Numbered from the stretch's first letter, positions 15,798-51,459 are shown. The stretch: DNA of 64,000 nt from Nitrosopumilus sp. (GCA_965218785.1 OZ244650.1:704001-768000), one strand, 5' to 3'. The notes: a model not told the origin generated them from the sequence alone. Translations and numbers: made by a program.

Positions 15798-16937
15798 TTA
15801 TTGCATGGAAATTAGCAGCGGATCCGGCCTGTAAAACTCGCCGTGTTTGTCTGCAAGTTTGTTTAATTCATCAGTAATTCTCTTTATTCCGATTTCTTTT
15901 GCAGTTTCAAATAACGGTTTTTTAAGACCCAGCCCCAGCCGTGCTGCTTTTTCAATCTCTTCGATGTCACTTGCCCCATTTGTGACAAGCCATGCGGCAT
16001 TGTTTAAAATATTTGCAACCAGTTGAATCGGATCATATTTTGCCGCCAGTTCTTCTGAAAGTGCTACACGCTCGTATTTCTCATCAGAATACTTGTAGTA
16101 TCCCTCTCCTGATTTTTGTCCCAGCCTTTTCTCATCAAACATCTTGCCAACTAGCGGATGAGGATTGATGACCTTGCCGTCTCGCAGATGCATCTCCACG
16201 GTTGCTTTGTGAATCACATCCATACCCGTAAAATCTGCCAGCTCAAAAATGCCCATTGGAAACCCCAGCTTGAATTTAACAGCAGAATCAATTTCCTCTA
16301 GTGTTGCGCCTGTCCTGTCTTTTACAAAACATGCCTCATGAACCATTGGAATAAACAGCCTGTTGATTATGAATCCCGGAACGTCTTTTCTGCACAGTAC
16401 TGCCTGCTTGTTGACTGATTTTACGTATTCCAGTGTCAAATCAGTTATCTCCTGTGCTGTTTTTTCTCCCGGAATCACCTCGACTAGTTTCATGAGTTGT
16501 GGAGGATTGAAAAAATGAATTCCTATGAATTTTTCAGGACGCGATGTAGTGTTTGCTATTTCGGTGATTGGTAACGTGCTGGTATTTGATGCAAAGATTA
16601 CCTGCGGTCCTGCAACCTCGTCTAACTCTGCATATACCTTCTTTTTTAGATCCATTATCTCCGGCACTACCTCGATGACCATCTCTGCATCCCTTACTGC
16701 CTCATTCAAATCCACAACGGGTCTGATTCTTGAAAATATTGCGTCTCCTTCTGATGCTGTGATCTTTTCCTTGGTGACTAGTTTGTCCAGACTCCATTTT
16801 ATTTTCCCCATGGCCTTATCTAGGAATCCCTGTTCAATATCCCGCAATACCACGTTGTATCCTGCAGTTGCTGAAACCTGGGCAATGCCGTGACCCATGA
16901 CGCCAGAACCTAAAACCGTGATATTTTTTATCATCAC
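15798..16937 (-). CDS. hbd: 3-hydroxybutyryl-CoA (3-hydroxyacyl-CoA) dehydrogenase, likely HP/HB cycle enzyme
   Basis: VLGSGVMGHGIA, ASNTSTL, GIHFFNPP, PGFIINRL, PMGIFELAD. Confidence 0.93.
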   Translation of the reverse strand: MMIKNITVLGSGVMGHGIAQVSATAGYNVVLRDIEQGFLDKAMGKIKWSLDKLVTKEKITASEGDAIFSRIRPVVDLNEAVRDAEMVIEVVPEIMDLKKKVYAELDEVAGPQVIFASNTSTLPITEIANTTSRPEKFIGIHFFNPPQLMKLVEVIPGEKTAQEITDLTLEYVKSVNKQAVLCRKDVPGFIINRLFIPMVHEACFVKDRTGATLEEIDSAVKFKLGFPMGIFELADFTGMDVIHKATVEMHLRDGKVINPHPLVGKMFDEKRLGQKSGEGYYKYSDEKYERVALSEELAAKYDPIQLVANILNNAAWLVTNGASDIEEIEKAARLGLGLKKPLFETAKEIGIKRITDELNKLADKHGEFYRPDPLLISMQ

Positions 16938-27520: not shown

Positions 27521-29071
<1,551 letters not shown>

Positions 29072-29179
29072 TAGTCTTCACAATCATCGATGCAATGCAT
29101 CACGAAAGTGATGTATGAAGGATGTAGCAGGTCTCCGCCAGGGGACTTGCAATGATCGTCGTGCATAGTCGTGTAATAT

Positions 29180-32214
<3,035 letters not shown>

Positions 32215-40068: not shown

Positions 40069-42486
40069 TTGAAAAGCATTGCTGCCATCATTGCAATTTT
40101 ATTTTTACCTGTATGCGGTTTTGCCTTTGCTGATGATGATTACTATGTGTATGTTGATGAACTGCCTGATTATGCGGAATTTGCCGTAAACGTACTGTAT
40201 GAATCAACCCTGTATTGGGAAGAACAGATTCCCGGATTGCATTTTTATCTGGTAGACGATCCGACTGATGCGAATTTTCGTGTACAATGGGTAAAAGAAT
40301 TCGGAGTCGAGCATGTCGGATATGCGTTTGGAAACAAATTCATCGAAGTCGGTCTTGGAGATAGCAACTGCATAGATTCATGGACTCCCTTTTCGGCAAA
40401 CCACGTATCTAATATCGTAAAGCATGAGATTGGCCATATTCTGGGCTTTGATCACAGCACTGATAAAAATGATATAATGTATCCTGTCGCACTCTCCCAC
40501 GAATACGGCCTGGTCAAAAATGATTATCCCTTTGTTGAAAATTATGGATATTTTGTACCCTTTTGTACTTCAAAACCAGTAACATCCTTTGATTATGAGA
40601 TTTCAACTGATGATCCTGTTTATGGCTTTGATGTTTATTTTGTACCAAGTGCGGATTCCCTCCAAAAATTTGGAGATAATGAACCATTTGAGTATTATGC
40701 AGATGAATCTTGTTATGGGAAAAATTATCTAAGCTATGGGGGAACATGCGAATCAGTATCTGGAGATGGCGGAATAATGATTTTCACACATGACACCCTG
40801 TCTAATCCATTGACTACTATTACCCTCCAATATGAAGAGCACTCTTTGAATGAGCCTCTTCCTGACAGAAAAGTGGTATTCTCAAAGCCTTCAAAACCAA
40901 ATGCTCCTGATGATGCTTCCCCTGTCCCTGTCCCCGTCCCACCAGAGCCTGTTCCTGATGATCCTGCCCCTGCCCCTGTTCCACCAGAGTTACCTTCAGA
41001 TGATGACCCTCTTGTTCCCGTCCCCGTCCCACCAGAGTCAGTTCCAGCTGAAATAATATCGTCTACTGATGTTGGTTCGATAAAACTGGACTCGGGGACT
41101 TTTCAGATTGCATATTCAGATACAGTATACGTCAAAGTTTCTGGAACCATCTATGACAAACAGTCCGTAGACAAGGTAGCTATAACCTGGACATATCCGG
41201 ACGGGCTAACCAATGGAAATATTGTCTTTATTACTGATCAGGGCTATTTTGAATCACTGCTGATTTTAGATGGTAAATCCCCGATTGGAACCTATGAGGT
41301 GCTGGCCTCATCTCGACAAAAAATCGTTGGACTGTTAACATTTGATGTAGTTGAAAAAACATCTTCGCAGGATCCGATAATTTCAAAACCTGTTGAGACT
41401 ACTAGTGTTCCAAACCTTTTGGTTTCTGGAAAAGATCCATCTCACTACATCGATCGTTATAATAACGAATCAGGGTACAAAGACTGGTTTGATGCCAACT
41501 ATCCTGATTATTCAATTTATGAACTGGTAGGATTAAAAGATCCCACATCCTTTGTTGATGCCGACAAGGATCCCCCGTACTACATCAATCGCTACAACAA
41601 CGAACCAGAATACAAAGACTGGTTTGATGCCAACTATCCCGGCTACTCCATTTATGACGTGGTAGGACTAAAAGATCCCACATCCTTTGTTGATGCCGAC
41701 AAGGATCCCCGGTACTACATCAATCGCTACAACAACGAACCAGAATACAAAGACTGGTTTGATGCCAACTATCCCGATTATTCAATTTATGAACTGGTAG
41801 GACTAAAAGATCCCACATCCTTTGTTGATGCCGACAAGGATCCCCAATACTATATTGATCGCTACAACAACGAACCAGAATACAAAGACTGGTTTGATGC
41901 CAACTATCCCGATTATTCAATTTATGAACTGGTAGGACTAAAAGATCCCACATCCTTTGTTGATGCCGACAAGGATCCCCAATACTATATTGATCGCTAC
42001 AACAACGAACCAGAATACAAAGACTGGTTTGATACCAACTATCCAGGCTACTCCATTTATGACGTGGTAGGACTAAAAGATCCCACATCCTTTGTTGATG
42101 CCGACAAGGATCCCCAGTATTACATCAATCGCTACAACAACGAACCAGAATACAAAGACTGGTTTGATACCAACTATCCAGGCTACTCCATTTATGACGT
42201 GGTGGGAATTGATGCCCCGCAATCTATTACATGGATAAAACAAAATGCAAAGATGTGGTCAGATGGCGAGATCTCCGATGAGACTTTTGTTTCGGATATT
42301 TCATATTTGATCTCCAATGATGTCATTGTGATCTCAGAGCCAACAGCTAGTTCTTTTTCTTCAGAATCGTCTATTCCTAGCTGGCTAAAATACAATGTGA
42401 GTCTTTGGCATGATGAAAAGATCAATGATGCGACATTTCTTGAGCTAGTCAAATATCTAGTCGAACATGGGGTTATTGTGAGGTAA
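40069..42486 (+). CDS. Secreted matrixin-like (metzincin) zinc protease with repeat region
   Basis: Signal peptide, HEIGHILGFDH plus DIMYP Met-turn, Pro-rich linker, six 45-aa repeats, C-terminal WIKQNAKMW/IPSWLK modules. Confidence 0.9.
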   Translation: MKSIAAIIAILFLPVCGFAFADDDYYVYVDELPDYAEFAVNVLYESTLYWEEQIPGLHFYLVDDPTDANFRVQWVKEFGVEHVGYAFGNKFIEVGLGDSNCIDSWTPFSANHVSNIVKHEIGHILGFDHSTDKNDIMYPVALSHEYGLVKNDYPFVENYGYFVPFCTSKPVTSFDYEISTDDPVYGFDVYFVPSADSLQKFGDNEPFEYYADESCYGKNYLSYGGTCESVSGDGGIMIFTHDTLSNPLTTITLQYEEHSLNEPLPDRKVVFSKPSKPNAPDDASPVPVPVPPEPVPDDPAPAPVPPELPSDDDPLVPVPVPPESVPAEIISSTDVGSIKLDSGTFQIAYSDTVYVKVSGTIYDKQSVDKVAITWTYPDGLTNGNIVFITDQGYFESLLILDGKSPIGTYEVLASSRQKIVGLLTFDVVEKTSSQDPIISKPVETTSVPNLLVSGKDPSHYIDRYNNESGYKDWFDANYPDYSIYELVGLKDPTSFVDADKDPPYYINRYNNEPEYKDWFDANYPGYSIYDVVGLKDPTSFVDADKDPRYYINRYNNEPEYKDWFDANYPDYSIYELVGLKDPTSFVDADKDPQYYIDRYNNEPEYKDWFDANYPDYSIYELVGLKDPTSFVDADKDPQYYIDRYNNEPEYKDWFDTNYPGYSIYDVVGLKDPTSFVDADKDPQYYINRYNNEPEYKDWFDTNYPGYSIYDVVGIDAPQSITWIKQNAKMWSDGEISDETFVSDISYLISNDVIVISEPTASSFSSESSIPSWLKYNVSLWHDEKINDATFLELVKYLVEHGVIVR
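41425..42210 (+). repeat. 135-bp coding tandem repeat, 5 near-identical units plus 1 divergent
   Basis: aaagatcccacatcctttgttgatgccgacaaggatccc recurs every 135 bp (e.g. 41671, 41806, 41941). Confidence 0.97.
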
Positions 42487-42759: not shown

Positions 42760-43143
42760 GTGTCTGATTCAAATACCTCCTTGCAGTTATTTAGTGAAAA
42801 ATGCAGTCAATTACTTGGAGAATCTGAAATAAGATTTGCAGGAATTGTTGACAATGATGGCAAGCTTGTGGCGGGAGGTTTCAAAAAAGGACTCATTCCC
42901 TATGAAGGCGATGAGACTAAATTACAGTCCTTTTTTGATTTTGTCTCAAAGGCATCCATTCGAAAAGAATTTGATGAGAGCCTGGGACCGATAAACTATC
43001 TTGCTGCAAGAAGAGACAAGGCAGTCTTGGTCAGTTTCCCATTTCCAATCACGCATATCCTGCTGTTAATATCTGCAGAACCCACTGTCAATATTGAAAG
43101 TCTGGCCAAAAAAGTCGTCGAAATATTCACTGATGTGAATTAA
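42760..43143 (+). CDS. DUF6659 (roadblock-like) family protein
   Basis: IRFAGIVDNDGKLVAGG...RKEFDESLGPINY...RDK..LVSFP. Confidence 0.8.
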   Translation: MSDSNTSLQLFSEKCSQLLGESEIRFAGIVDNDGKLVAGGFKKGLIPYEGDETKLQSFFDFVSKASIRKEFDESLGPINYLAARRDKAVLVSFPFPITHILLLISAEPTVNIESLAKKVVEIFTDVN

Positions 43144-43995: not shown

Positions 43996-44427
43996 TTATT
44001 TTACAATAACTACCGGAATCTTTGCAGTATGTATCACATAATTTGAAACACTGCCAAAGAATATCTCCTTTGTAGAACTTCTTCCACGGGAACCCATCAC
44101 GATCATATCAAATTTGTTTTTACCATGGGCAAGTTTGACGATGTTGTATCCAACCTCCCCCCTCATTATTTTCTCCTTGAAGACGATTCCATTTTGGGCT
44201 GCCATCACCTTGGCATTACTCATTATTTTTTTTATCTCGATGTTTAATGATTTTCGAACCGAGCCTACCCCTCTAAACTCTGAATGTGGTGGCACATGAA
44301 TCAAATACACCCCGGTAATGATTGCCCCGCACTGTCTGGCCAGGGTAATTGCCATTTCCAAGCCTCTGATCGAGTTTTTAGATCCGTCAAGAGGTACTAG
44401 GATTTTTGAGATCTTCTTTTTTATCAC
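43996..44427 (-). CDS. Universal stress protein
   Basis: ILVPLDGS...DMIVMGSRG...GSVSNYVIH. Confidence 0.93.
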   Translation of the reverse strand: MIKKKISKILVPLDGSKNSIRGLEMAITLARQCGAIITGVYLIHVPPHSEFRGVGSVRKSLNIEIKKIMSNAKVMAAQNGIVFKEKIMRGEVGYNIVKLAHGKNKFDMIVMGSRGRSSTKEIFFGSVSNYVIHTAKIPVVIVK

Positions 44428-44537: not shown

Positions 44538-45350
44538 ATGGTAATTGAAGCTAAAATTGTGGAACAGAAATTCATTCAAATTGATGGAAACACAATTCGT
44601 TATTTGGAATCCGGCGATTCTAAAAAAACCCTGGTTCTTGTTCATGGTCTGGGTGCATCAGCTGAAAGATGGTTGCCAGTAATTCCACTCTTTGCAGACG
44701 AATTTCGTGTTATAGTCCCTGATCTTATTGGATTTGGTTACAGTGCCAAGCCTCTTGTTGACTATACCCCCGAATTCTTTTCAGAATTCCTGACAAAGTT
44801 TCTTAGTGCATCTAACATCGTGCGTCCTAACATTGTCGGCTCCTCGCTGGGAGGGCAAATATCCATCCAATACGCCTCTTCACATCCCCAAGATATTGAA
44901 AAACTTGTCCTAGTCTCCCCCTCTGGCATAATGAAAGAATCCACCCCCGCACTTGACGCATACATAATGGCTGCGTTATACCCCAACAAACAAAACGCGA
45001 CAAATGCATTTGAATTGATGGATGGCTCTGCTCATAAAGTCGATGAGGAGGTTGTTACCGGATTTATAAAACGAATGCGACTACCTAACGCAAAACTTGC
45101 CTTCATGTCTACCCTGCTGGGAATGAAAAACTCTGTTCTCATCACATCCAAACTTCAAACTCTTCGGACTCCAACCCTGATTATTTGGGGCTCAAATGAC
45201 CCTGTCATTCCAATTCATCACGCAGATAAATTCGTCTCTGCAATTCCGGATTGTCAGTTTTACAAGATGGAGCGATGCGGTCATACCCCACACGTTCAGG
45301 ATCCGCATACTTTTGTCTCCAAAGTTTCAGAGTTCCTAAATGCGCCTTGA
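44538..45350 (+). CDS. Alpha/beta-fold hydrolase (candidate PHA depolymerase or oligomer hydrolase)
   Basis: HGLG oxyanion loop, GSSLG nucleophile, WGSND, GHTPH catalytic triad. Confidence 0.88.
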   Translation: MVIEAKIVEQKFIQIDGNTIRYLESGDSKKTLVLVHGLGASAERWLPVIPLFADEFRVIVPDLIGFGYSAKPLVDYTPEFFSEFLTKFLSASNIVRPNIVGSSLGGQISIQYASSHPQDIEKLVLVSPSGIMKESTPALDAYIMAALYPNKQNATNAFELMDGSAHKVDEEVVTGFIKRMRLPNAKLAFMSTLLGMKNSVLITSKLQTLRTPTLIIWGSNDPVIPIHHADKFVSAIPDCQFYKMERCGHTPHVQDPHTFVSKVSEFLNAP

Positions 45351-45387
45351 TCTACATTTAAATACCCTTTAATCCCAATCATTACCA

Positions 45388-45813
45388 ATGAGTGGTAATA
45401 CTAACCAATATGATCCCACCGAAATGTTCAAGGATTGGATCCAAAAAAGCGGGCGTGCTCAGGCAGAATTTATGAAAAGTTTTGGCTCTTTGATGGCAAA
45501 TCAATCAGGCCAGACATTTAATCCACTAGAAACCCTAAAGGGAGTTTCTGATGGTGCCAGGGATGCCCAATCAAGTATGATGCAAGGTTTGTCCTCCATA
45601 CAAAACAAAAACATGGATGCCATCTTCAACATTGGACAAATGCTTCCCTCCTTCATGAATTGGGGTGCTTACAAAACTACCATCAGTAGTAATGGAAGAA
45701 TCTCAATCCCTGAGGCAGAGCGTAATGCACTTGGTCTGGGAGAGGGCGATTTGGTTCAGATAGTTATCCTACCAATTGCAAAAAAATCAAAAAACAAGGA
45801 GGTGAAACAATGA
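45388..45813 (+). CDS. AbrB/MazE-type regulator, archaeal PhaR-like
   Basis: C-terminal ISSNGRISIPEAERNALGLGEGDLVQI AbrB domain; Met/Gln-rich amphipathic N-terminus; adjacent to phaEC. Confidence 0.75.
   Translation: MSGNTNQYDPTEMFKDWIQKSGRAQAEFMKSFGSLMANQSGQTFNPLETLKGVSDGARDAQSSMMQGLSSIQNKNMDAIFNIGQMLPSFMNWGAYKTTISSNGRISIPEAERNALGLGEGDLVQIVILPIAKKSKNKEVKQ
45796..45805 (+). promoter_or_regulatory. Shine-Dalgarno site for the phasin-like gene
   Basis: AAGGAGGTGA, complementary to the 16S 3' end TCACCTCCT seen in this window. Confidence 0.8.
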
Positions 45814-46241
45814 GTAACGAAACAACAACAAAACCAAGCAGTTCAAAGGATGTATTTTCAGTATGTCAGCAAAACGTAGACAAACTCTTCAACGGTGTTA
45901 GACAGTCAGTACCACAGTATCATCAATCAATTACTAATGTACAGCAGGAATATCTGCAAGCATATGAAAACGTAATAGATTCGACCATTACACTGCAAAA
46001 AGAATATACACGAAAGGCAGGTATTGCAGCAAATATTCCTGAAGCAAGTCTTAAGGTAATACGTGATACTACGGAAGAATTTGTAAAGGCAACTTCAATA
46101 CAGAATCAGGTGGTACTTGCAACTATCGATGCAACACAGCAAAACATCAAAACATTCAACGATAATGCAAAATCATTTGCTGAACTGAACAAAAATATTC
46201 TACAGTCTTGGATTTCCGCATTTACCACAAAGTACAACTAG
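45810..46241 (+). CDS. Phasin-like helical protein (PhaP candidate)
   Basis: All-alpha Gln/Asn/Thr-rich amphipathic sequence, coupled (ATGA) to the AbrB gene as in haloarchaeal phaRP. Confidence 0.6.
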   Translation: MSNETTTKPSSSKDVFSVCQQNVDKLFNGVRQSVPQYHQSITNVQQEYLQAYENVIDSTITLQKEYTRKAGIAANIPEASLKVIRDTTEEFVKATSIQNQVVLATIDATQQNIKTFNDNAKSFAELNKNILQSWISAFTTKYN

Positions 46242-46257
46242 GTAAATCCAAACTGTT

Positions 46258-46279
46258 AATTTTTTCTTTTTTTATTTTA
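46258..46279 (+). terminator. T-rich tract between convergent phasin-like and phaC genes
   Basis: ttttttctttttttatttt after the stop codon. Confidence 0.5.
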
Positions 46280-47341
46280 TGATTTTTCAGTTAGCCATTG
46301 GCCTAGTTCGGGCAGTATTTTCTTTTGTGACATCGAACTGGCTATCATTCCAACGTGTCCGGTAGGATATATTCTCAGTGTTTTATCCTCACTTCCCACC
46401 GCATAATGCAGTGGCATACTGCATTCAGGGGACACCAAGTGGTCTCCCACTGCCACCTGTGTGAATATCGGCATGTCTATCTTTTTCAAATTAATGACCT
46501 CCCCTTCTATGGACATTTTGTTTTGAATGAGCAGGTTGTCCTGATAGATGTCTTTAATCCACTGTTTGAACAGCTGTCCGGGAATGGGGGGCGTATCTCC
46601 GAGCCATTTTTCCACCCTGAGAAAACTATCCACAAATTTCTTATTATCTATATTTTTGAAAAAGTTCACGTATTTTTCGATTCCCTGCTCGAATGGTTTT
46701 AGGACTGAAAAGCAGTAATACATGAACTCGGGAGGCATGTTTCCGATGATATCTACCATTTTATCTGCATCCATGTGTTTTGCAAGATTGCTGATTACCG
46801 TGGTGTCCCGCCATCCGTCAATGACTGGAGCAGTCGCAACATAGTTTTTCACGTTTTCTGGATGCAGTGCCGCGTATGCCGTTGCTATTGTTGCACCGGT
46901 ACAGTATCCCTGTAATGAAATTTTCTCACATGATGATTCGTTTTTGATGTACTCCACATAGTAATCCAGGTAGCCATTAACATAATCATCAAAATCAAGA
47001 TACTTGTCCATGCTAGTCGGTGTTCCCCAATCCAGCATGTAGACATCAAATCCCTGCTGGAGAAGATTTCTTACCCAGCTTTTTTCTGGATGAATGTCAA
47101 GTATGTGGTATCTGTTAATCAGTGCATATGCAATTAACAGCGGTGTCTTGTGCTGCTTGTCTGTAAGCGGTCTGTAGTGTAATAGTCTTGTCTTGTCCAT
47201 CTTGTGCACGACATCGTGCTGTGTTACCTCCAAGTTGATTTCATCTGGTGCCGAAACTAATTTTGGCGCCTCGATGACATTCTTGCTGAATTTCAGAATC
47301 TCCTCGATTATTTTTGGATCTACTCTTGACTCACTTTGCAT
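46277..47341 (-). CDS. phaC: Class III PHA synthase subunit PhaC
   Basis: PLLIAYALINRYHILD, GFDVYMLDWG, catalytic GYCTG, DHLV, GHVG. Confidence 0.96.
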   Translation of the reverse strand: MQSESRVDPKIIEEILKFSKNVIEAPKLVSAPDEINLEVTQHDVVHKMDKTRLLHYRPLTDKQHKTPLLIAYALINRYHILDIHPEKSWVRNLLQQGFDVYMLDWGTPTSMDKYLDFDDYVNGYLDYYVEYIKNESSCEKISLQGYCTGATIATAYAALHPENVKNYVATAPVIDGWRDTTVISNLAKHMDADKMVDIIGNMPPEFMYYCFSVLKPFEQGIEKYVNFFKNIDNKKFVDSFLRVEKWLGDTPPIPGQLFKQWIKDIYQDNLLIQNKMSIEGEVINLKKIDMPIFTQVAVGDHLVSPECSMPLHYAVGSEDKTLRIYPTGHVGMIASSMSQKKILPELGQWLTEKS

Positions 47342-47909
47342 TTTTTTCCATCTTTTTTTTCTTTAACTCCAACTCTAATCTGCCGATTCTTTTTTTAAGT
47401 GAATGCATCTCCTTGTAAACCTCGTCAATCTCCTCCTTGCTTGGAAGATTCACTGACTGTAGTATTACATTGGTGATGTTGTTCCAGTGCTTGGTTAATT
47501 CAAGTTCTTTTGAAACCAGTCTTCCATAATTTTCCCCGAATTTTCCAGAATCAAACAACTCTGTAAAATCATTGTCAAAAATATCTATCCAGATTCTTTT
47601 AAACGCCTCTATCTGTTCGACATCATGGGGAACCTCGGGCGCCTTTATGTTTACCTTCTTTTGTGCGTCAGTCCATGTTTCTGAGAGCTGTTTATAGTAT
47701 TCTGTAAGATGCTTATTAAACTCCAACAACACCTCGTTGATCTCAATTAACTCGGTGGATATCTTTTTAGAGTTTGCCGCAAAGGATCTCATCGGGCCAA
47801 TGGATGCCAATGCCTGAGGCTTGCTTGACATCAAATGGATGATATCTGTCCAGAAAAGCGACAGGTGTTTGTAATAATCGGTAATATCCTTGGATGACTC
47901 TGGCTCCAC
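47331..47909 (-). CDS. phaE: Class III PHA synthase subunit PhaE
   Basis: FKRIWID...NLPSKEEIDEVYKEMHSLKKRI; overlaps phaC start. Confidence 0.9.
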   Translation of the reverse strand: MEPESSKDITDYYKHLSLFWTDIIHLMSSKPQALASIGPMRSFAANSKKISTELIEINEVLLEFNKHLTEYYKQLSETWTDAQKKVNIKAPEVPHDVEQIEAFKRIWIDIFDNDFTELFDSGKFGENYGRLVSKELELTKHWNNITNVILQSVNLPSKEEIDEVYKEMHSLKKRIGRLELELKKKKMEKNAK

Positions 47910-47962
47910 AGATACCTGCTGATACAGCTCGCAATAAATAGATCGCTTGCCTAATCAAACAA

Positions 47963-48355
47963 ATGCAGAATGTGGAGGAGCTTGAAAAGATTTGTCGGCA
48001 AATCATAAAACTAGATCCCATGATGCGCTCGGCCAGGCTCATAAACAGCAGAGGTCATTTGTTAGCCGGCGGAATGAAGGAGGGACTGCTCTCACTTGAA
48101 GCTCAAAAACAAGATGAGATGATGTTCATGGAACTTGCCTTGCGTGTACGAATGAGACACGAGTTTGATAATGAATTTGGCAAGGTACATTTTTCCATGT
48201 CATACAGGGACAGGATCATTGTGATGAGCTTTCCACTAACTAACGATGATGTGTTTTTGATATCCTGTGAAAAGGAGACTGATTTTGGAAAAACTGCATT
48301 TCAAATTCTCAATATAATCAAGCCTCTTAAAAAAAACCCGATGAAGACATTCTAG
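47963..48355 (+). CDS. DUF6659 (roadblock-like) family protein
   Basis: MRSARLINSRGHLLAGG...ELALRVRMRHEFDNEFG.V.F.MSYRD....SFP; paralog of 42760..43143. Confidence 0.8.
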   Translation: MQNVEELEKICRQIIKLDPMMRSARLINSRGHLLAGGMKEGLLSLEAQKQDEMMFMELALRVRMRHEFDNEFGKVHFSMSYRDRIIVMSFPLTNDDVFLISCEKETDFGKTAFQILNIIKPLKKNPMKTF

Positions 48356-49263
48356 TCGTTGAGCATTTTTCTCAATCCTGCACATCTGTTTCTTATGGTG
48401 ACTTCGGTAACTCCGGATGCAATTGAGATGTCTTTTTGTGATTTTACTTCGCCCGTACTAATACATGCAAGATACAGTGCTGCAGCAGCTATTCCCATGG
48501 GATCCTTTCCTGCCACAATTCCTACTTCTTTTGCCTGGTTCAGAATTATAATCGCCTTTCGCTTACTTTTTTCACTCAATTCTGCAATGCTTGCAATTCT
48601 TGAGACTCCTTTGACAGGATCAACTACCGGCATCTTTAATTCAAGTTCCCTGAAAATCAGCCTGTAACATCTGGCAACATCTTTTCTTCTGATGTTGATT
48701 CCCTTTGCAATGTCGTCTAGCGTTCTTGGTGTCTCTGTATTTCTACATGATGCATAAAGACATGCTGCAACCAGTCCGTGAATTGAACGCCCTCTGACTA
48801 GTTTTTTCTCCATTGCCTTTCTGTAAATGTAGGCTGCCTTTTCTATCACTGCGTTAGTCAATGCAAGTTTGTCTTTTAGTTTGTCCATTTCATTAAGTGC
48901 CTGTCTTAGATTCCTGTCTGCAGACGAATGTGCCTGGCTTCTGCTGTCCCATGTTCTCAGCCTTTCAATCGAACTTTTCACACTTGCAGACAGCGGCTTT
49001 CCAGTGGAGTCCTTGTTGACTGCGCCGATCACAGTTGATAATCCCATGTCGTGCATCGTCAATGAGGTTCCGGCACCTGTTCTTGCCTTGTTCCCCTCAT
49101 CATTTGAAAATGAACGCCATTCTGCACCGGTATCTGTTATTTTATCAGTTACTACAAAACCACACTTTCCACAGAATAACTCTCCTGTATTTTCATCTGT
49201 TACCATCTTTCTGTCTCCGCAGGCTGGACATTTCGGACCTACTGCTGTCGAATTTTTGAGCAT
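48352..49263 (-). CDS. tfb: Transcription initiation factor IIB
   Basis: CPAC..ELFCGKCG zinc ribbon, GAEWRSF, two cyclin repeats, GVTEVTIRNR. Confidence 0.97.
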   Translation of the reverse strand: MLKNSTAVGPKCPACGDRKMVTDENTGELFCGKCGFVVTDKITDTGAEWRSFSNDEGNKARTGAGTSLTMHDMGLSTVIGAVNKDSTGKPLSASVKSSIERLRTWDSRSQAHSSADRNLRQALNEMDKLKDKLALTNAVIEKAAYIYRKAMEKKLVRGRSIHGLVAACLYASCRNTETPRTLDDIAKGINIRRKDVARCYRLIFRELELKMPVVDPVKGVSRIASIAELSEKSKRKAIIILNQAKEVGIVAGKDPMGIAAAALYLACISTGEVKSQKDISIASGVTEVTIRNRCAGLRKMLND

Positions 49264-49563
49264 AATTGAATACACTGTTATATTATCCTGTTATCAACTT
49301 AACCATTTCTACATAGTTGTTTGTATGTAGGTTGAGCTAACACTGATTCTAATCTTTTGGAATGACACCCTGTATTTTCCTTAGAAGGCGATATGCCATA
49401 AAACTGGTATTATTCATTACTTTTTCATACTGATTTCATTATAATTCACCATGATCCGCTATATCATTCCTAATTGGGGTTGTCCTGCTGCGGCAGCAGG
49501 CACCGTATAAATAACATCTGACTTGGAAAATCTTTAATTCATTCATGATTACGTGTTTTTGTA

Positions 49564-49911
49564 ATGAAGAAGATCGGCACCGGGAAGGTCATTTATAATC
49601 TGCGCAAAAAAATCCAGCAGGCTCAGGCAGACCTGGATCAGCTGGGCAAACCGGTATCTGAGATTCCCGAACTGATTGTTTCAGCAAACCTGCTGAGATC
49701 CAATGAATATCTATCTCAAATAAATGAAAAAAAGACCGAACTGTTATCTGCATACATCCAATATTCTGACGCACTCGAAGAACTGCTTTCAACTGTCTTT
49801 GACATACAAAACGATCTAAAGGAAATCCTGAAAAAACAGTCATCTATGATATCCTCCAGAAAAAAGAAACAATCAAAGTCAAAAACCAGATCAAAAAATT
49901 CTAAAAGATAG
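49564..49911 (+). CDS. Hypothetical coiled-coil protein with basic tail
   Basis: 115-aa helical ORF. Confidence 0.7.
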   Translation: MKKIGTGKVIYNLRKKIQQAQADLDQLGKPVSEIPELIVSANLLRSNEYLSQINEKKTELLSAYIQYSDALEELLSTVFDIQNDLKEILKKQSSMISSRKKKQSKSKTRSKNSKR

Positions 49912-49912
49912 C

Positions 49913-50914
49913 CTATTTTGATAAATGAATGATGTCTCCTGCAAGTATTCTCTCCCCGTTATCTAGTATTAATGCACCATCCTCATCAATCCTGGCTGCC
50001 ATCCCACCGGTTCTTCCGTATGCCGTGTCTAGTTCCACGTTCCTCCCAATCGTTGATGATCTTTTTGTCCATTCTGAAATGATCTTTTTGGTCTGTTTTT
50101 TATTTGGCAGCATCTCGTAGATTTTTTCCAGCTCTATCAAGAATGCCTGAATTAATTCAACGGGCCGGACTTTTTTTCTGTGTTCTGCAAGTGATGCAAC
50201 TCCGTAAAAATTAGGCGAGTCCTTTAGTGTTTTTTCCATCTGTTTTGCATCCACGTCAAAATTTATTCCAACTCCCAGGACAAGATTCTCTATCCTGTTT
50301 GATTCCAATGACGCATCTACTAGTATTCCTGCAACTTTTTTGCCCTTGATGGTCAGATCATTTGGCCATTTCAATTCCGGTGAAATTTTAAATGTTTTCT
50401 CCAATGCGTTTGCCAATGCCAGTGATGATGCAATTGGAAACAGCGTGGTAATTGAAATATCTGATTTTGGACGTAAAATTATTGAAAACCATATGCCGCC
50501 TTTGGGTGAAATCCATTTTCTGCCTGCCCTTCCCCTGCCGCCTGTCTGTTTTGCGGCAACTATTATCGTACCATCCTCTGCAGATTCACCTGCCATTTTT
50601 AACGCCTGATCCTGGGTGGAATCAACTGAATCAAAATAGCATGCCCGCTGGCCGATAACTCTTGTCTTAAGACCGGCGGTAATCTCCCATGGAAAAAGTG
50701 AGTCTGAATTGGCCGTCAGCTTGTAGCCTAACTTTTGTTTTGACTCTACGGTGTATCCTAACTCCTGAATCTTTTTGATATGTTTCCACACTGCGACCCT
50801 GCTTATTCTTAAAACATCGCTCAAATCCTGCCCTGATAAATACTCTGTATTGTGGGTCTGCAGAAACGTTAGAACCTTTACCAATCCCGGATTATCATAT
50901 GAATTATAAATCAA
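49913..50914 (-). CDS. birA: Biotin--protein ligase with N-terminal HTH
   Basis: SGQDLS..ISRVAVWKHI, QTGGRGRAGRKW, KWPND, KVAGIL; likely TTG start 50914. Confidence 0.95.
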   Translation of the reverse strand: MIYNSYDNPGLVKVLTFLQTHNTEYLSGQDLSDVLRISRVAVWKHIKKIQELGYTVESKQKLGYKLTANSDSLFPWEITAGLKTRVIGQRACYFDSVDSTQDQALKMAGESAEDGTIIVAAKQTGGRGRAGRKWISPKGGIWFSIILRPKSDISITTLFPIASSLALANALEKTFKISPELKWPNDLTIKGKKVAGILVDASLESNRIENLVLGVGINFDVDAKQMEKTLKDSPNFYGVASLAEHRKKVRPVELIQAFLIELEKIYEMLPNKKQTKKIISEWTKRSSTIGRNVELDTAYGRTGGMAARIDEDGALILDNGERILAGDIIHLSK

Positions 50915-50949
50915 CTGCTGTTTGTTTTTAATCCAAGTATAAAATTGCA

Positions 50950-51459
50950 CTAGAATCCGATATCAAAATCAAATCCGCCGTCATCCATGCCGCCGCCATC
51001 TGTGCCTCCGTCTGCACCTTCTGCTGGCATGTTTTCTGCTGGCACGTAATCTGATATTACAGCGCCCATCATTGTAAACATCATTGAGAACATCACCATA
51101 TCCATTATGCCAAAAAACATCATCGTGGGAAGCACGCCCTTGTTCTCATTCATGACCTGCTGGAGTTTTTGCTTGTTCCCCGTTTTGTAAATCTGTGACA
51201 TGTCGCTCCACTTTTCTTGCAGTTCATGAATCCGCTCATCTATCTCCCTGGAACCTTTGTCTGTGACTGTCAGTTCTATCTTTTGACCAAACAACCCCTT
51301 TTTTTCTAGCACCTGAATGAATCCACGCCCTTCTAATTTCTCCAAAATGGCATTGATCTCTTTGGGCTCGATCTGTGTTGTTTTTTGAATCATGTCAAAT
51401 CTTTTTGCGCCGCGTCTGATTGCGCCCAAAATTATTACATCCTTTGCCTCTGACTCCAT
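50950..51459 (-). CDS. Winged-HTH protein with Met-rich helix and Gly/Asp-rich tail
   Basis: ILEKLEGRGFI...LTVTDKG; tail GGMDDGGFDFDIGF. Confidence 0.75.
   Translation of the reverse strand: MESEAKDVIILGAIRRGAKRFDMIQKTTQIEPKEINAILEKLEGRGFIQVLEKKGLFGQKIELTVTDKGSREIDERIHELQEKWSDMSQIYKTGNKQKLQQVMNENKGVLPTMMFFGIMDMVMFSMMFTMMGAVISDYVPAENMPAEGADGGTDGGGMDDGGFDFDIGF

What the first reader, a model, noticed from the sequence alone, without database searches (positions are those of the whole stretch)
44538..47909. Apparently complete PHA granule module in a Nitrosopumilaceae-like archaeon: hydrolase, PhaR-like and phasin-like genes converging on phaE-phaC
Seen: phaE-phaC with an intact catalytic Cys/Asp/His on the minus strand. 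Facing it are three co-oriented genes: an alpha/beta hydrolase, an AbrB-domain protein and a helical Gln/Asn-rich protein with a perfect Shine-Dalgarno. Known: class III phaEC occur in some Thaumarchaeota, and AbrB-like PhaR plus phasin PhaP form an operon next to phaEC in haloarchaea. Inference: this is the thaumarchaeal equivalent, and the hydrolase is an intracellular PHA depolymerase or oligomer hydrolase of a different fold from the patatin-like haloarchaeal enzyme. I know of no characterisation of these three accessory genes in AOA.
Basis: partly seen in the sequence, partly recalled or inferred. Interest (0 to 1): 0.75.

Follow-up and report, generated by a model that had tools for sequence, protein, structure and literature searches.

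The report
Archaeal nitrifier bioplastic granule gene cluster
Ammonia-oxidising archaea keep, beside their bioplastic (PHA) synthase genes, a regulator related to one known from salt-loving archaea, a very abundant protein that looks like a granule coat, and an esterase that might break the polymer down, which gives concrete candidates for how these abundant microbes store and recycle carbon.

Summary
The five genes are real and in the stated order. The order hydrolase-abrB-helical gene><phaC-phaE is kept in 46 of 52 informative Nitrosopumilales loci, and hydrolase-abrB adjacency in 79 of 80 loci, while the other neighbours change. The AbrB protein is a true homologue of Haloferax PhaR (HHalign 99.6%). 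It has its own TATA box and a conserved inverted repeat across its start codon, a candidate operator. The helical protein is not detectably related to haloarchaeal PhaP but behaves like a phasin: strongly amphipathic, perfect Shine-Dalgarno, and among the roughly 50 most intense proteins in a published N. maritimus proteome. The hydrolase is the weak link. It belongs to the EstN1 family, already characterised as a short-chain esterase and propionyl-CoA thioesterase that complements bioH, and not reported as tested on PHA. It fails the depolymerase HMM cut-off, lies about 55 genes from phaC in Nitrososphaera, and its inferred N. viennensis orthologue does not change under carbon limitation. The module is not 'complete': it has no monomer-supply genes. 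Verdict: a thaumarchaeal variant of the archaeal phaRP-phaEC system, probably with a separate phasin family; a depolymerase role is plausible (about 0.4) and cheaply testable.

The parts
44538..45350 (+). Cytoplasmic alpha/beta-fold serine esterase of the EstN1 family (Ser103/Asp221/His249); candidate PHA/oligomer hydrolase or short acyl-CoA thioesterase
   Evidence: 20 of 21 EstN1-family logo positions at one ungapped offset; 49% identical to the N. viennensis protein; tree; model pLDDT 94.6
45357..45364 (+). TATA box of the phaR-phaP unit, 23 nt before the ATG (leaderless transcript inferred)
   Evidence: sequence; conserved across Nitrosopumilales loci
45381..45399 (.). Conserved inverted repeat ATTACCA-ATGAG-TGGTAAT across the phaR start codon; candidate PhaR operator
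   Evidence: core WACC-N7-GGTW in 52 of 69 loci after the hydrolase stop, 0 of 68 upstream of the hydrolase, 0 of 52 upstream of phaE; Gly3 codon GGT in 57 of 66, the most constrained of 38 conserved Gly columns; single copy in the window, chance mean 0.31
45388..45813 (+). PhaR homologue: two N-terminal helical repeats (about 7-35, 45-80) plus C-terminal AbrB DNA-binding domain (about 95-131)
   Evidence: HHalign 99.59%, E 4e-24; 22/37 identical to Hfx. mediterranei PhaR in the domain
45796..45805 (+). Perfect 10-nt Shine-Dalgarno inside the phaR 3' end, serving the phasin-like gene
   Evidence: SD-like word near the start in 43 of 57 orthologues
45810..46241 (+). Phasin-like amphipathic all-helical protein (putative PhaP of its own family)
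   Evidence: no homology to haloarchaeal PhaP
46277..47341 (-). Class III PHA synthase catalytic subunit PhaC (Cys147/Asp300/His329)
   Evidence: TIGR01836 above cut-off; GYCxG in 57 of 57 orthologues
47331..47909 (-). Short archaeal-type PhaE subunit
   Evidence: PF09712 above cut-off; HHalign 94.5% to haloarchaeal PhaE
47926..47945 (.). Conserved phaE promoter element (TATA-like core flanked by GATC-like words), probably shared back-to-back with the divergent DUF6659 gene
   Evidence: core in 47 of 51 loci; bidirectional use is inference from 23-nt spacing to both starts

Best explanation
The locus is the ammonia-oxidiser version of the archaeal PHA granule system, built from at least three transcription units. 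(1) phaE-phaC makes the polyester (family membership shown; activity inferred). (2) A leaderless phaR-phaP transcript makes a little PhaR and, through the internal perfect Shine-Dalgarno, a great deal of an amphipathic phasin that coats the granules (homology, promoter and abundance shown; granule binding inferred). PhaR most likely represses its own operon by binding the inverted repeat over its start codon and is titrated away when polymer accumulates, as described for Haloferax; it probably does not control phaEC, whose promoter lacks the repeat (inferred). (3) The EstN1-family esterase has stayed beside phaR since the common ancestor of Nitrosopumilales and Nitrososphaerales, is expressed separately and apparently constitutively, and most likely works on the PHA pool. 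The single most likely reaction is hydrolysis of amorphous PHA or short hydroxyacid oligomers (about 0.4; inferred from linkage only). Confidence in parts 1-2 is about 0.85; the figure below is for parts 1-2 plus a PHA-linked role of some kind for the esterase.
For: Full five-gene order in 46 of 52 Nitrosopumilales loci with at least 2.6 kb of right flank. In the more distant Nitrosopumilales loci the hydrolase keeps abrB 29/30, phaC 25/28, phaE 19/21 and phaP 22/27 but loses msrA (3/22), usp (4/23), tfb (3/16) and birA (1/16). abrB is adjacent in 10 of 10 Nitrososphaerales loci, one with phaC and one with phaE next to it. Among 72,556 plasmids the six best AbrB hits are haloarchaeal; four were opened and sit directly before phaP-phaE-phaC, and the only non-haloarchaeal hit has E 0.5. 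The phasin-like protein has amphipathicity z 5.7, the highest of 41 window ORFs of 100-260 aa, against 6.1-8.0 for haloarchaeal PhaP; the nearest named Atlas cluster is PhaP_Bmeg at 0.90. In the N. maritimus proteome its orthologue WP_012215375.1 has 44x and 19x the intensity of PhaC and 202x and 580x that of the PhaR orthologue. PHA-like granules and a Raman PHA band are reported in N. maritimus, with no PhaZ or PhaR among the six PHA genes found by KEGG. The hydrolase tree follows the host orders, and PHA synthase was inferred as gained in the AOA ancestor. A Bacillus intracellular PhaZ has the same fold (Z 31.4) and is not induced during mobilisation either.
Against: The hydrolase scores 103.9 vs cut-off 300 on NF050089. 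Its best structural matches are C-C hydrolases (Z 36.5), with B. thuringiensis PhaZ only rank 34. EstN1 prefers C3 acyl groups (pNP-propionate 10.1, pNP-butyrate 0.1 U/mg; propionyl-CoA 14.6 U/mg). In 8 of 10 Nitrososphaerales loci hydrolase and abrB are tail-to-tail with no phaEC in the flank held, and in N. evergladensis and N. viennensis the hydrolase is about 55 genes from phaC. The inferred N. viennensis orthologue is 'no change' (adj. P 0.16) while PhaC and PhaE fall under carbon limitation (adj. P 3e-9 and 4e-9). An unrelated DUF6659 gene is almost as faithful a neighbour (15/19), so gene order alone is not proof of function. L059 (a whole chromosome) keeps hydrolase-phaR-phaP with no phaEC within 10 kb, and L065 keeps the hydrolase without phaR. 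The phasin-like gene is absent between phaR and phaC in six Nitrosotenuis/Nitrosotalea-like loci. It matches no phasin Pfam above threshold (Phasin_2 in 2 of 37 members, best E 0.009).
Confidence: 0.62

Rival explanations
1. phaR-phaP-phaEC is a granule system, but the esterase is a short-chain acyl-CoA thioesterase that trims propionyl-CoA or hydroxyacyl-CoA pools at the junction of the 3HP/4HB cycle and PHA synthesis, and does not attack the polymer.
For: EstN1's highest measured activity is on propionyl-CoA (14.6 U/mg vs 0.26 on acetyl-CoA). Apparently constitutive. An invariant hydrophobic cap suggests a defined small substrate. It would also explain the linkage.
Against: Other members were not assayed on CoA esters in the parts read; wasting propionyl-CoA would cost an autotroph energy (inference); hydroxyacyl-CoAs were not among the substrates listed.
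Confidence: 0.2
2. The esterase is the AOA BioH analogue (biotin precursor demethylation), and its place beside the PHA genes is historical.
For: EstN1 complements E. coli bioH and M. loti bioZ mutants and cleaves dimethyl pimelate (0.35 U/mg). birA lies 4.6 kb from the hydrolase in the window.
Against: The N. viennensis and N. evergladensis orthologues (72% identical to EstN1) failed to complement, and the authors allow that EstN1's activity is coincidental. The paper notes that no ACP is known in archaea and that no bioC was found. TIGR01738 77.7 vs cut-off 206.95. birA stays near in only 1 of 16 distant loci.
Confidence: 0.12
3. The esterase is a promiscuous housekeeping enzyme with no tie to PHA; the adjacency is inherited gene order.
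For: Own promoter downstream of it, opposite orientation in Nitrososphaera, no co-regulation with PhaEC; the DUF6659 neighbour is similarly retained.
Against: All left-hand neighbours are exchanged between lineages while phaR stays in 79 of 80 loci.
Confidence: 0.2
4. The helical protein is not a phasin but a generic abundant coiled-coil or membrane-binding protein, and the AbrB protein has a PHA-independent regulon.
For: No sequence or fold match to a known phasin; retained in L059 without nearby phaEC; missing at the locus in six PHA-synthase-bearing loci.
Against: Same position and overlap as Haloferax phaRP; PhaR homology; hydrophobic moment peaks at 98-100 degrees and not 102.8; the low-PhaR/high-PhaP ratio matches Haloferax.
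Confidence: 0.12

Closest known systems
Haloferax mediterranei maoC(phaJ)-phaR-phaP-phaE-phaC cluster (pHM300, NC_017943.1)
   Same: Class III PhaC (40% identity), short PhaE (HHalign 94.5%), AbrB-type PhaR (99.6%; 22/37 identical in the domain), phaR overlapping a small helical phasin gene.
   Different: phaEC faces phaRP instead of following it; no phaJ/maoC or phaB in the cluster; the phasin shows no detectable homology and no acidic C-terminus; PhaR carries a duplicated N-terminal helical repeat; the candidate operator is one inverted repeat where Haloferax has four tandem repeats; an alpha/beta esterase is attached, whereas the Haloferax depolymerase PhaZh1 is patatin-like and paired with bdhA.
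EstN1 (Ngar_c14400) of Nitrososphaera gargensis and its HMM family (PMC6138646)
   Same: 20 of 21 logo residues at one offset; GSSxGG elbow; Ser-Asp spacing 118; 47-50% identity to N. viennensis, N. evergladensis and 261-aa S93/D211/H238 proteins; sister clades in the tree.
   Different: The window protein is on the Nitrosopumilales branch (GSSLGG, Asp-His spacing 28 vs 27). The paper proposes a biotin role; the text read reports no PHA substrate and no PHA link (its Fig. 6 on ORF context was not visible). EstN1's own sequence was not obtained.
Bacillus thuringiensis intracellular PHB depolymerase PhaZ (PDB 8YNV; NCBIfam NF050089)
   Same: alpha/beta fold with cap, serine elbow, no signal peptide; Z 31.4, rmsd 2.1 A over 254 residues; third-best PDB sequence hit of the family profile.
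   Different: 25% identity, sequence match confined to the first ~125 residues, score a third of the cut-off; elbow GSSLG vs GWSMG; 33 entries align better.
Bacillus megaterium-type phasin PhaP (PF09602)
   Same: Nearest Pfam-named cluster in ESM feature space (0.90, 174 of 256 features); similar size.
   Different: PF09602 is not among the 25 (of 63) families listed for 37 members; recognition score 2101 is below the tool's reliability level, so this is a lead only.
Ferroglobus/Geoglobus phaR-phaP-phaE-phaC clusters (bioRxiv 10.1101/2025.05.06.652502)
   Same: The same kind of inference: an archaeal phaRP operon next to phaEC outside the haloarchaea.
   Different: Euryarchaeal, Haloferax-like order; that paper has no mention of Nitroso- or Thaumarch- taxa (0 hits).

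Membership tests
Class III PHA synthase | PhaC above the TIGR01836 cut-off with Cys/Asp/His triad | tested here: met
   405.7 vs 365.3; Cys147/Asp300/His329
Class III PHA synthase | phaE directly upstream of phaC | tested here: met
   PF09712 40.9 vs 25.7; HHalign 94.5% to haloarchaeal PhaE; TIGR01834 below cut-off (36.6 vs 154.95)
Class III PHA synthase | Polymerises hydroxyacyl-CoA | not testable with these tools
   PHA-like granules reported in N. maritimus
Haloarchaeal PhaR | C-terminal AbrB-like domain homologous to Hfx. mediterranei PhaR | tested here: met
Haloarchaeal PhaR | First gene of an operon with the phasin, near phaEC | tested here: met
   4-nt overlap and own TATA box; order kept in 46 of 52; co-transcription itself is inferred
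Haloarchaeal PhaR | Negative cis element of four tandem repeats in the phaRP promoter | tested here: inconclusive
   A single conserved inverted repeat was found; no dedicated tandem-repeat search was run
Haloarchaeal PhaR | Binds its promoter and PHA granules, represses phaRP | not testable with these tools
   needs EMSA and granule proteomics
Haloarchaeal PhaP family | Sequence homology to Hfx. mediterranei PhaP | tested here: not met
   HHalign 0.47%, BLASTP E 4.4, no tblastn hit in plasmids at E 10; profile HMM gives only 9.4 bits
Haloarchaeal PhaP family | Asp/Glu-rich C-terminus | tested here: not met
   sequence: Glu 5.6%, neutral to basic tail; feature from review passage
Phasins (functional class) | Small, all-helical, strongly amphipathic | tested here: met
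   three helices (pLDDT 64.8); z 5.7, highest of 41 controls
Phasins (functional class) | Far more abundant than the synthase and regulator | tested here: met
   published N. maritimus proteome tables: 19-44x PhaC, 202-580x PhaR by raw intensity
Phasins (functional class) | Match to a curated phasin Pfam family | tested here: not met
   Phasin_2 in 2 of 37 members, best E 0.0088
Phasins (functional class) | Fold like a solved phasin | tested here: inconclusive
   best Z 8.5 to a designed helical bundle; low-confidence helical model
Phasins (functional class) | Binds the granule surface | not testable with these tools
   needs granule proteomics or localisation
EstN1 family of thaumarchaeal carboxylesterases | HMM-logo residues (triad, W, P, G positions; GSSXGG) | tested here: met
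   20 of 21 at offset +7; at most 4 at any of 50 other offsets
EstN1 family of thaumarchaeal carboxylesterases | Groups with the Nitrososphaera EstN1 homologues | tested here: met
   99/91 clade of 39 rows split by host order; EstN1 itself not in the tree
Intracellular scl-PHA depolymerase, B. thuringiensis type (NF050089) | Score above the curated cut-off | tested here: not met
   103.9 vs 300; best of 49 members E 1e-35
Intracellular scl-PHA depolymerase, B. thuringiensis type (NF050089) | Serine elbow, triad, no signal peptide | tested here: met
   these features are common to many esterases
Intracellular scl-PHA depolymerase, B. thuringiensis type (NF050089) | Hydrolyses native or amorphous PHB and oligomers | not testable with these tools
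   not among EstN1 substrates in the methods read
Patatin-like depolymerase PhaZh1 | Patatin fold, GTSGG box | tested here: not met
   alpha/beta hydrolase by Pfam and fold
BioH pimeloyl-ACP methyl esterase | TIGR01738 above cut-off | tested here: not met
   77.7 vs 206.95
BioH pimeloyl-ACP methyl esterase | Complements a bioH mutant | not testable with these tools
   literature: EstN1 yes, two 72%-identical orthologues no
Meta-cleavage product (C-C) hydrolases, BphD/MhpC/CarC | Family HMM and the substrate-binding Arg and Asn | tested here: not met
   TIGR03343 75 vs 462; the CarC Arg aligns with invariant Phe176 and the elbow Asn with Ser102; the role of these residues is recalled, from no call

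The most novel reading that the evidence does not exclude
The EstN1 family, so far read as a BioH analogue, is the missing PHA depolymerase of ammonia-oxidising archaea. It would have been inherited with PHA synthase and PhaR from the ancestor of Nitrosopumilales and Nitrososphaerales, with its C3-acyl preference reflecting a polymer that contains 3-hydroxypropionate drawn from the 3HP/4HB cycle. The 143-aa protein would define a separate phasin family that ranks among the most abundant proteins of N. maritimus, controlled by an AbrB-type operator over the phaR start codon.
Probability: 0.3. Interest if true: 0.8.

Novelty: new variant of a known kind. Interest (0 to 1): 0.58.

Why it matters
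[quoted passage not shown] PHA-like granules have been imaged in N. maritimus, but a KEGG-based survey found only the synthase, BdhA, a hydratase and two dehydrogenases, with no phasin, regulator or depolymerase. This locus names a candidate for each missing role. It gives a likely function to one of the most intense 'hypothetical' proteins in the N. maritimus proteome and offers a 19-bp operator to test. It also suggests re-assaying an enzyme for which an expression and purification protocol already exists. If the esterase degrades PHA, its current reading as a biotin enzyme needs revising and the route by which starved nitrifiers recover stored carbon becomes testable.

Tried and rejected
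C-C (meta-cleavage) hydrolase: best fold match but rejected on HMM score and missing Arg/Asn. Homology of the helical protein to haloarchaeal PhaP: not found by tblastn, HMM, HHalign or BLASTP. Fold search of its model listed no phasin among 50 rows and was uninformative; PDB sequence search gave only weak coiled-coil hits. One operon for all three + genes: rejected because of the conserved TATA box before phaR and the opposite orientation in Nitrososphaera. The sigma-70/terminator scan is not suited to archaea and was at chance level. Rfam found only the rRNAs. Hydrolase against plasmids: only ~30% generic hydrolases, none annotated as depolymerase in the 25 of 294 rows shown. The alpha/beta hydrolase beside the Haladaptatus pha cluster is not in the EstN1 clade (long branch). 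A first alignment (A2) was too divergent for the locus scan. The N. maritimus hydrolase was not found in the stored, truncated proteome file, so its expression there is unknown; NVIE_002510 appeared only in the identifier table. Accession-level look-up of cluster members could not be made, so EstN1 (AFU58376) was not aligned directly and the identity of NVIE_002500 rests on gene offset. PMC7490402, PMC7055376 and PMC7819960 held nothing relevant. No complex prediction was run.


Full report
OBSERVATION. All five ORFs are present at the stated coordinates. PhaC passes the class III cut-off (405.7 vs 365.3) with Cys147/Asp300/His329. PhaE passes Pfam PF09712 and aligns with haloarchaeal PhaE (HHalign 94.5%), though it is far below the bacterial TIGR01834 cut-off. 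The Shine-Dalgarno before the helical gene is a 10/10 match to the window's own 16S 3' end, and only 2 of 68 long ORFs carry an SD-like word. The host is a Nitrosopumilaceae archaeon (rRNA operon; hydrolase tree).

SYNTENY. phaR-like abrB is the immediate neighbour in 79 of 80. Twenty loci had under 2.6 kb of right flank and were set aside for the order count. Of the remaining 60, 52 are Nitrosopumilales, and 46 of these have the exact order of the window; 3 lack only the phasin-like gene, 2 have phaEC moved away or absent, and 1 has the hydrolase alone. I split the loci by rank into close (L001-L039, L061), more distant Nitrosopumilales (the other loci up to L069, and L073) and Nitrososphaerales. 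In the distant group the hydrolase keeps abrB 29/30, phaC 25/28, phaE 19/21 and phaP 22/27, but msrA only 3/22, usp 4/23, tfb 3/16 and birA 1/16 (denominators are loci with a hit or enough flank). So the block outlives its surroundings. Against over-reading this: the divergent DUF6659 gene also stays (15/19). In the 10 Nitrososphaerales loci abrB is always adjacent, but tail-to-tail in 8, with phaC or phaE next to it in only one locus each. In N. evergladensis the homologue NTE_01571 and phaC NTE_01626 are 55 tags apart. The loci are related genomes, not independent trials.

PhaR. Against 72,556 plasmids, the six best hits of the AbrB protein are haloarchaeal AbrB proteins (E 6e-8 to 4e-6); four were opened and precede phaP-phaE-phaC, including Hfx. 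mediterranei pHM300; a fifth, cut by the record end, precedes a helical gene. The only non-haloarchaeal hit has E 0.5. Profile comparison gives 99.59%, E 4e-24; the domain is 22/37 identical for the window protein and 29/37 for a Nitrososphaera member. Most Nitrosopumilales proteins tested carry the N-terminal helical unit twice. A TATA box lies about 23 nt before the ATG, implying a separate leaderless transcript. An inverted repeat spans the start codon (45381-45399). Its core is present in 52 of 69 loci there, 0 of 68 upstream of the hydrolase and 0 of 52 upstream of phaE. The Gly3 codon that forms the right half is GGT in 57 of 66, the most constrained of 38 conserved Gly columns, although GGA is the commonest Gly codon; the next column is close (0.84, GGA in phaC). 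The core resembles the B. subtilis AbrB motif TNCCA-W4-TGGNA (PMC3025583, passages) with a 5-bp spacer. One copy in 64 kb is not itself significant (28 of 100 shuffles); the case rests on conservation, and no compensatory change was seen. An operator is inferred, not shown.

PHASIN-LIKE PROTEIN. It has no detectable homology to haloarchaeal PhaP, consistent with a review stating that PhaP homologues are confined to haloarchaea (PMC9049629, passages), and no phasin Pfam above threshold. The fold search was uninformative. For a phasin role: same place and overlap as Haloferax phaP; three long helices; amphipathicity z 5.7, highest of 41 window controls and near haloarchaeal PhaP (6.1-8.0), though PhaE (5.0) and one other ORF (4.7) come close; nearest named Atlas cluster PhaP_Bmeg 0.90, a lead only. 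In the N. maritimus proteome (PMC11082331, supplement rows) the orthologue WP_012215375.1, lying between PhaC (...374) and the AbrB protein (...376) and matching by its peptides, has intensities 3.3e10 and 5.0e10 (rows 51 and 37 of tables whose seen rows fall in order of intensity). PhaC has 7.5e8 and 2.6e9; PhaR 1.7e8 and 8.7e7. High phasin with scarce co-transcribed PhaR is what is reported for Haloferax (PMC7137286, passages). Automatic annotation has partly noticed this already: one UniRef name is 'Phasin family protein' and one Atlas cluster is called 'putative Phasin domain-containing protein'.

HYDROLASE. PMC6138646 (parts 1-5 of 7 read; supplement searched) describes EstN1 of N. gargensis and a 49-member thaumarchaeal family. 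The window protein matches 20 of 21 logo positions at one ungapped offset, at most 4 at any other. Eight of ten Nitrososphaerales members show EstN1's GSSFGG and all ten the 118/27 triad spacing. The window protein is 49% identical to the N. viennensis and N. evergladensis proteins, and the tree splits by host order. EstN1 is a short-chain esterase (pNP-C3 10.1, pNP-C4 0.1 U/mg), a propionyl-CoA thioesterase (14.6 U/mg) and complements bioH, but two 72%-identical orthologues do not; no PHA substrate appears in the methods read. For a depolymerase there is only the linkage and a compatible fold: B. thuringiensis PhaZ aligns at Z 31.4 but ranks 34th, behind C-C hydrolases at 36.5, and NF050089 gives 103.9 vs 300. 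In the N. viennensis carbon-limitation proteome (PMC12542715, passages and supplement rows) NVIE_002500, taken as the orthologue because it is an alpha/beta hydrolase 55 genes before phaC as in N. evergladensis, is unchanged (adj. P 0.16) while PhaC and PhaE fall. That shows no co-regulation. It does not exclude a depolymerase, since the Bacillus enzyme also is not induced during mobilisation (PMC7236355, passages). My split for the esterase: PHA/oligomer hydrolase 0.4, acyl-CoA thioesterase 0.25, unrelated housekeeping 0.2, BioH analogue 0.15.

MECHANISM. Shown: gene identities, PhaR homology, separate promoters at sequence level, conservation, abundance ratios from published data. Inferred: PhaEC polymerises hydroxyacyl-CoA from the 3HP/4HB cycle; PhaR represses phaRP at the inverted repeat and is drawn off by nascent polymer; the phasin coats the granule; the esterase turns over polymer or oligomers. 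The cluster lacks phaA, phaB, phaJ and bdhA, so it is not self-sufficient.

WHAT IS KNOWN. phaEC in most AOA is known (PMC4084955, passages; gained in the AOA ancestor, PMC7554672, passages; absent from Ca. Nitrosospongia ianthellae, PMC6790972, passage). PHA-like granules were imaged in N. maritimus, whose KEGG survey listed six PHA genes without PhaR or PhaZ. phaRP-phaEC is known in haloarchaea and proposed for Archaeoglobaceae (bioRxiv 2025.05.06.652502, passages; its supplements were not visible). Searches listed no paper assigning a phasin, PhaR or depolymerase in AOA, or linking EstN1 to PHA; only the top 2-30 rows of each were seen. The library lacks most subscription papers. Cai 2012, Cai 2015, Liu 2015, Tseng 2006, Spang 2012 and Kerou 2016 were not read and are known to me only through the reviews; Cai 2015 may already list thaumarchaeal PhaR homologues, as a PhaR-like gene in Ferroglobus had been noted before. 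Figures and three unreadable supplement files of PMC7554672 may also bear on co-occurrence.

VERDICT. A real, ancient, conserved cluster; a new variant of the archaeal phaRP-phaEC system. PhaR is solid, the phasin probable and of a separate family, the operator a new testable detail, the depolymerase an open hypothesis on an enzyme family already characterised for other reactions. Interest 0.58.

Noticed in passing
window 47926-47945 and 47963-48355: The phaE promoter core is nearly invariant (47 of 51 loci) and sits 23 nt from both the phaE start and the divergent DUF6659 start, suggesting a back-to-back promoter; the DUF6659 gene co-travels with phaE (15 of 19 distant loci) and a paralogue lies at 42760-43143.
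   Followed up: partly
window 45388-45630: The PhaR N-terminus is a tandem duplication of a helical unit that is single in the Nitrososphaerales proteins and matched once, weakly, in a Nitrosopelagicus protein; possibly the polymer-binding part.
   Followed up: partly
L049, L054, L055, L058, L069, L073: Nitrosotenuis- and Nitrosotalea-like loci where phaR abuts phaC with no phasin-like gene between; loss or relocation unknown.
   Followed up: partly
L059:10810-20795; L064:10792-20783; L065: Rearrangements break the block between the phasin-like gene and phaC (L064: phaEC inverted 5.5 kb away; L059: not within 10 kb); L065 keeps only the hydrolase.
   Followed up: partly
L078:7516-8193 (-): A 225-aa helical protein in a Nitrososphaerales locus matches the phasin-like profile weakly (E 2e-5): a possible distant family member.
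   Followed up: no
L083:790-1602 (-): Haladaptatus caseinilyticus also has an alpha/beta hydrolase next to maoC-phaR-phaP-phaE-phaC; it falls outside the EstN1 clade.
   Followed up: partly
window 43996-44427; L081:5396-5818; L084:5404-5826: A universal stress protein gene flanks the pha cluster both here and in two Haloferax species; may be coincidence.
   Followed up: no
window 40069-42486: 805-aa probably exported protein with an HExxHxxGxxH zinc-peptidase-like motif, a Pro-rich linker and about six tandem ~44-aa repeats near the C-terminus (labels from reading the sequence, no family scan).
   Followed up: no
window 15798-16937 (-): Looks like a 3-hydroxyacyl-CoA dehydrogenase (recalled from its N-terminal motif, not scanned); the only other ORF with an SD-like word.
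   Followed up: no
window 27576-32185: Archaeal 16S-23S rRNA operon.
   Followed up: partly
window 48352-50950: TFB paralogue and a BirA-like biotin ligase (label from reading the sequence) downstream of phaE.
   Followed up: partly
window 44538-44561: Many orthologous hydrolase ORFs begin about seven codons later, so the true start may be the GTG at residue 8.
   Followed up: no
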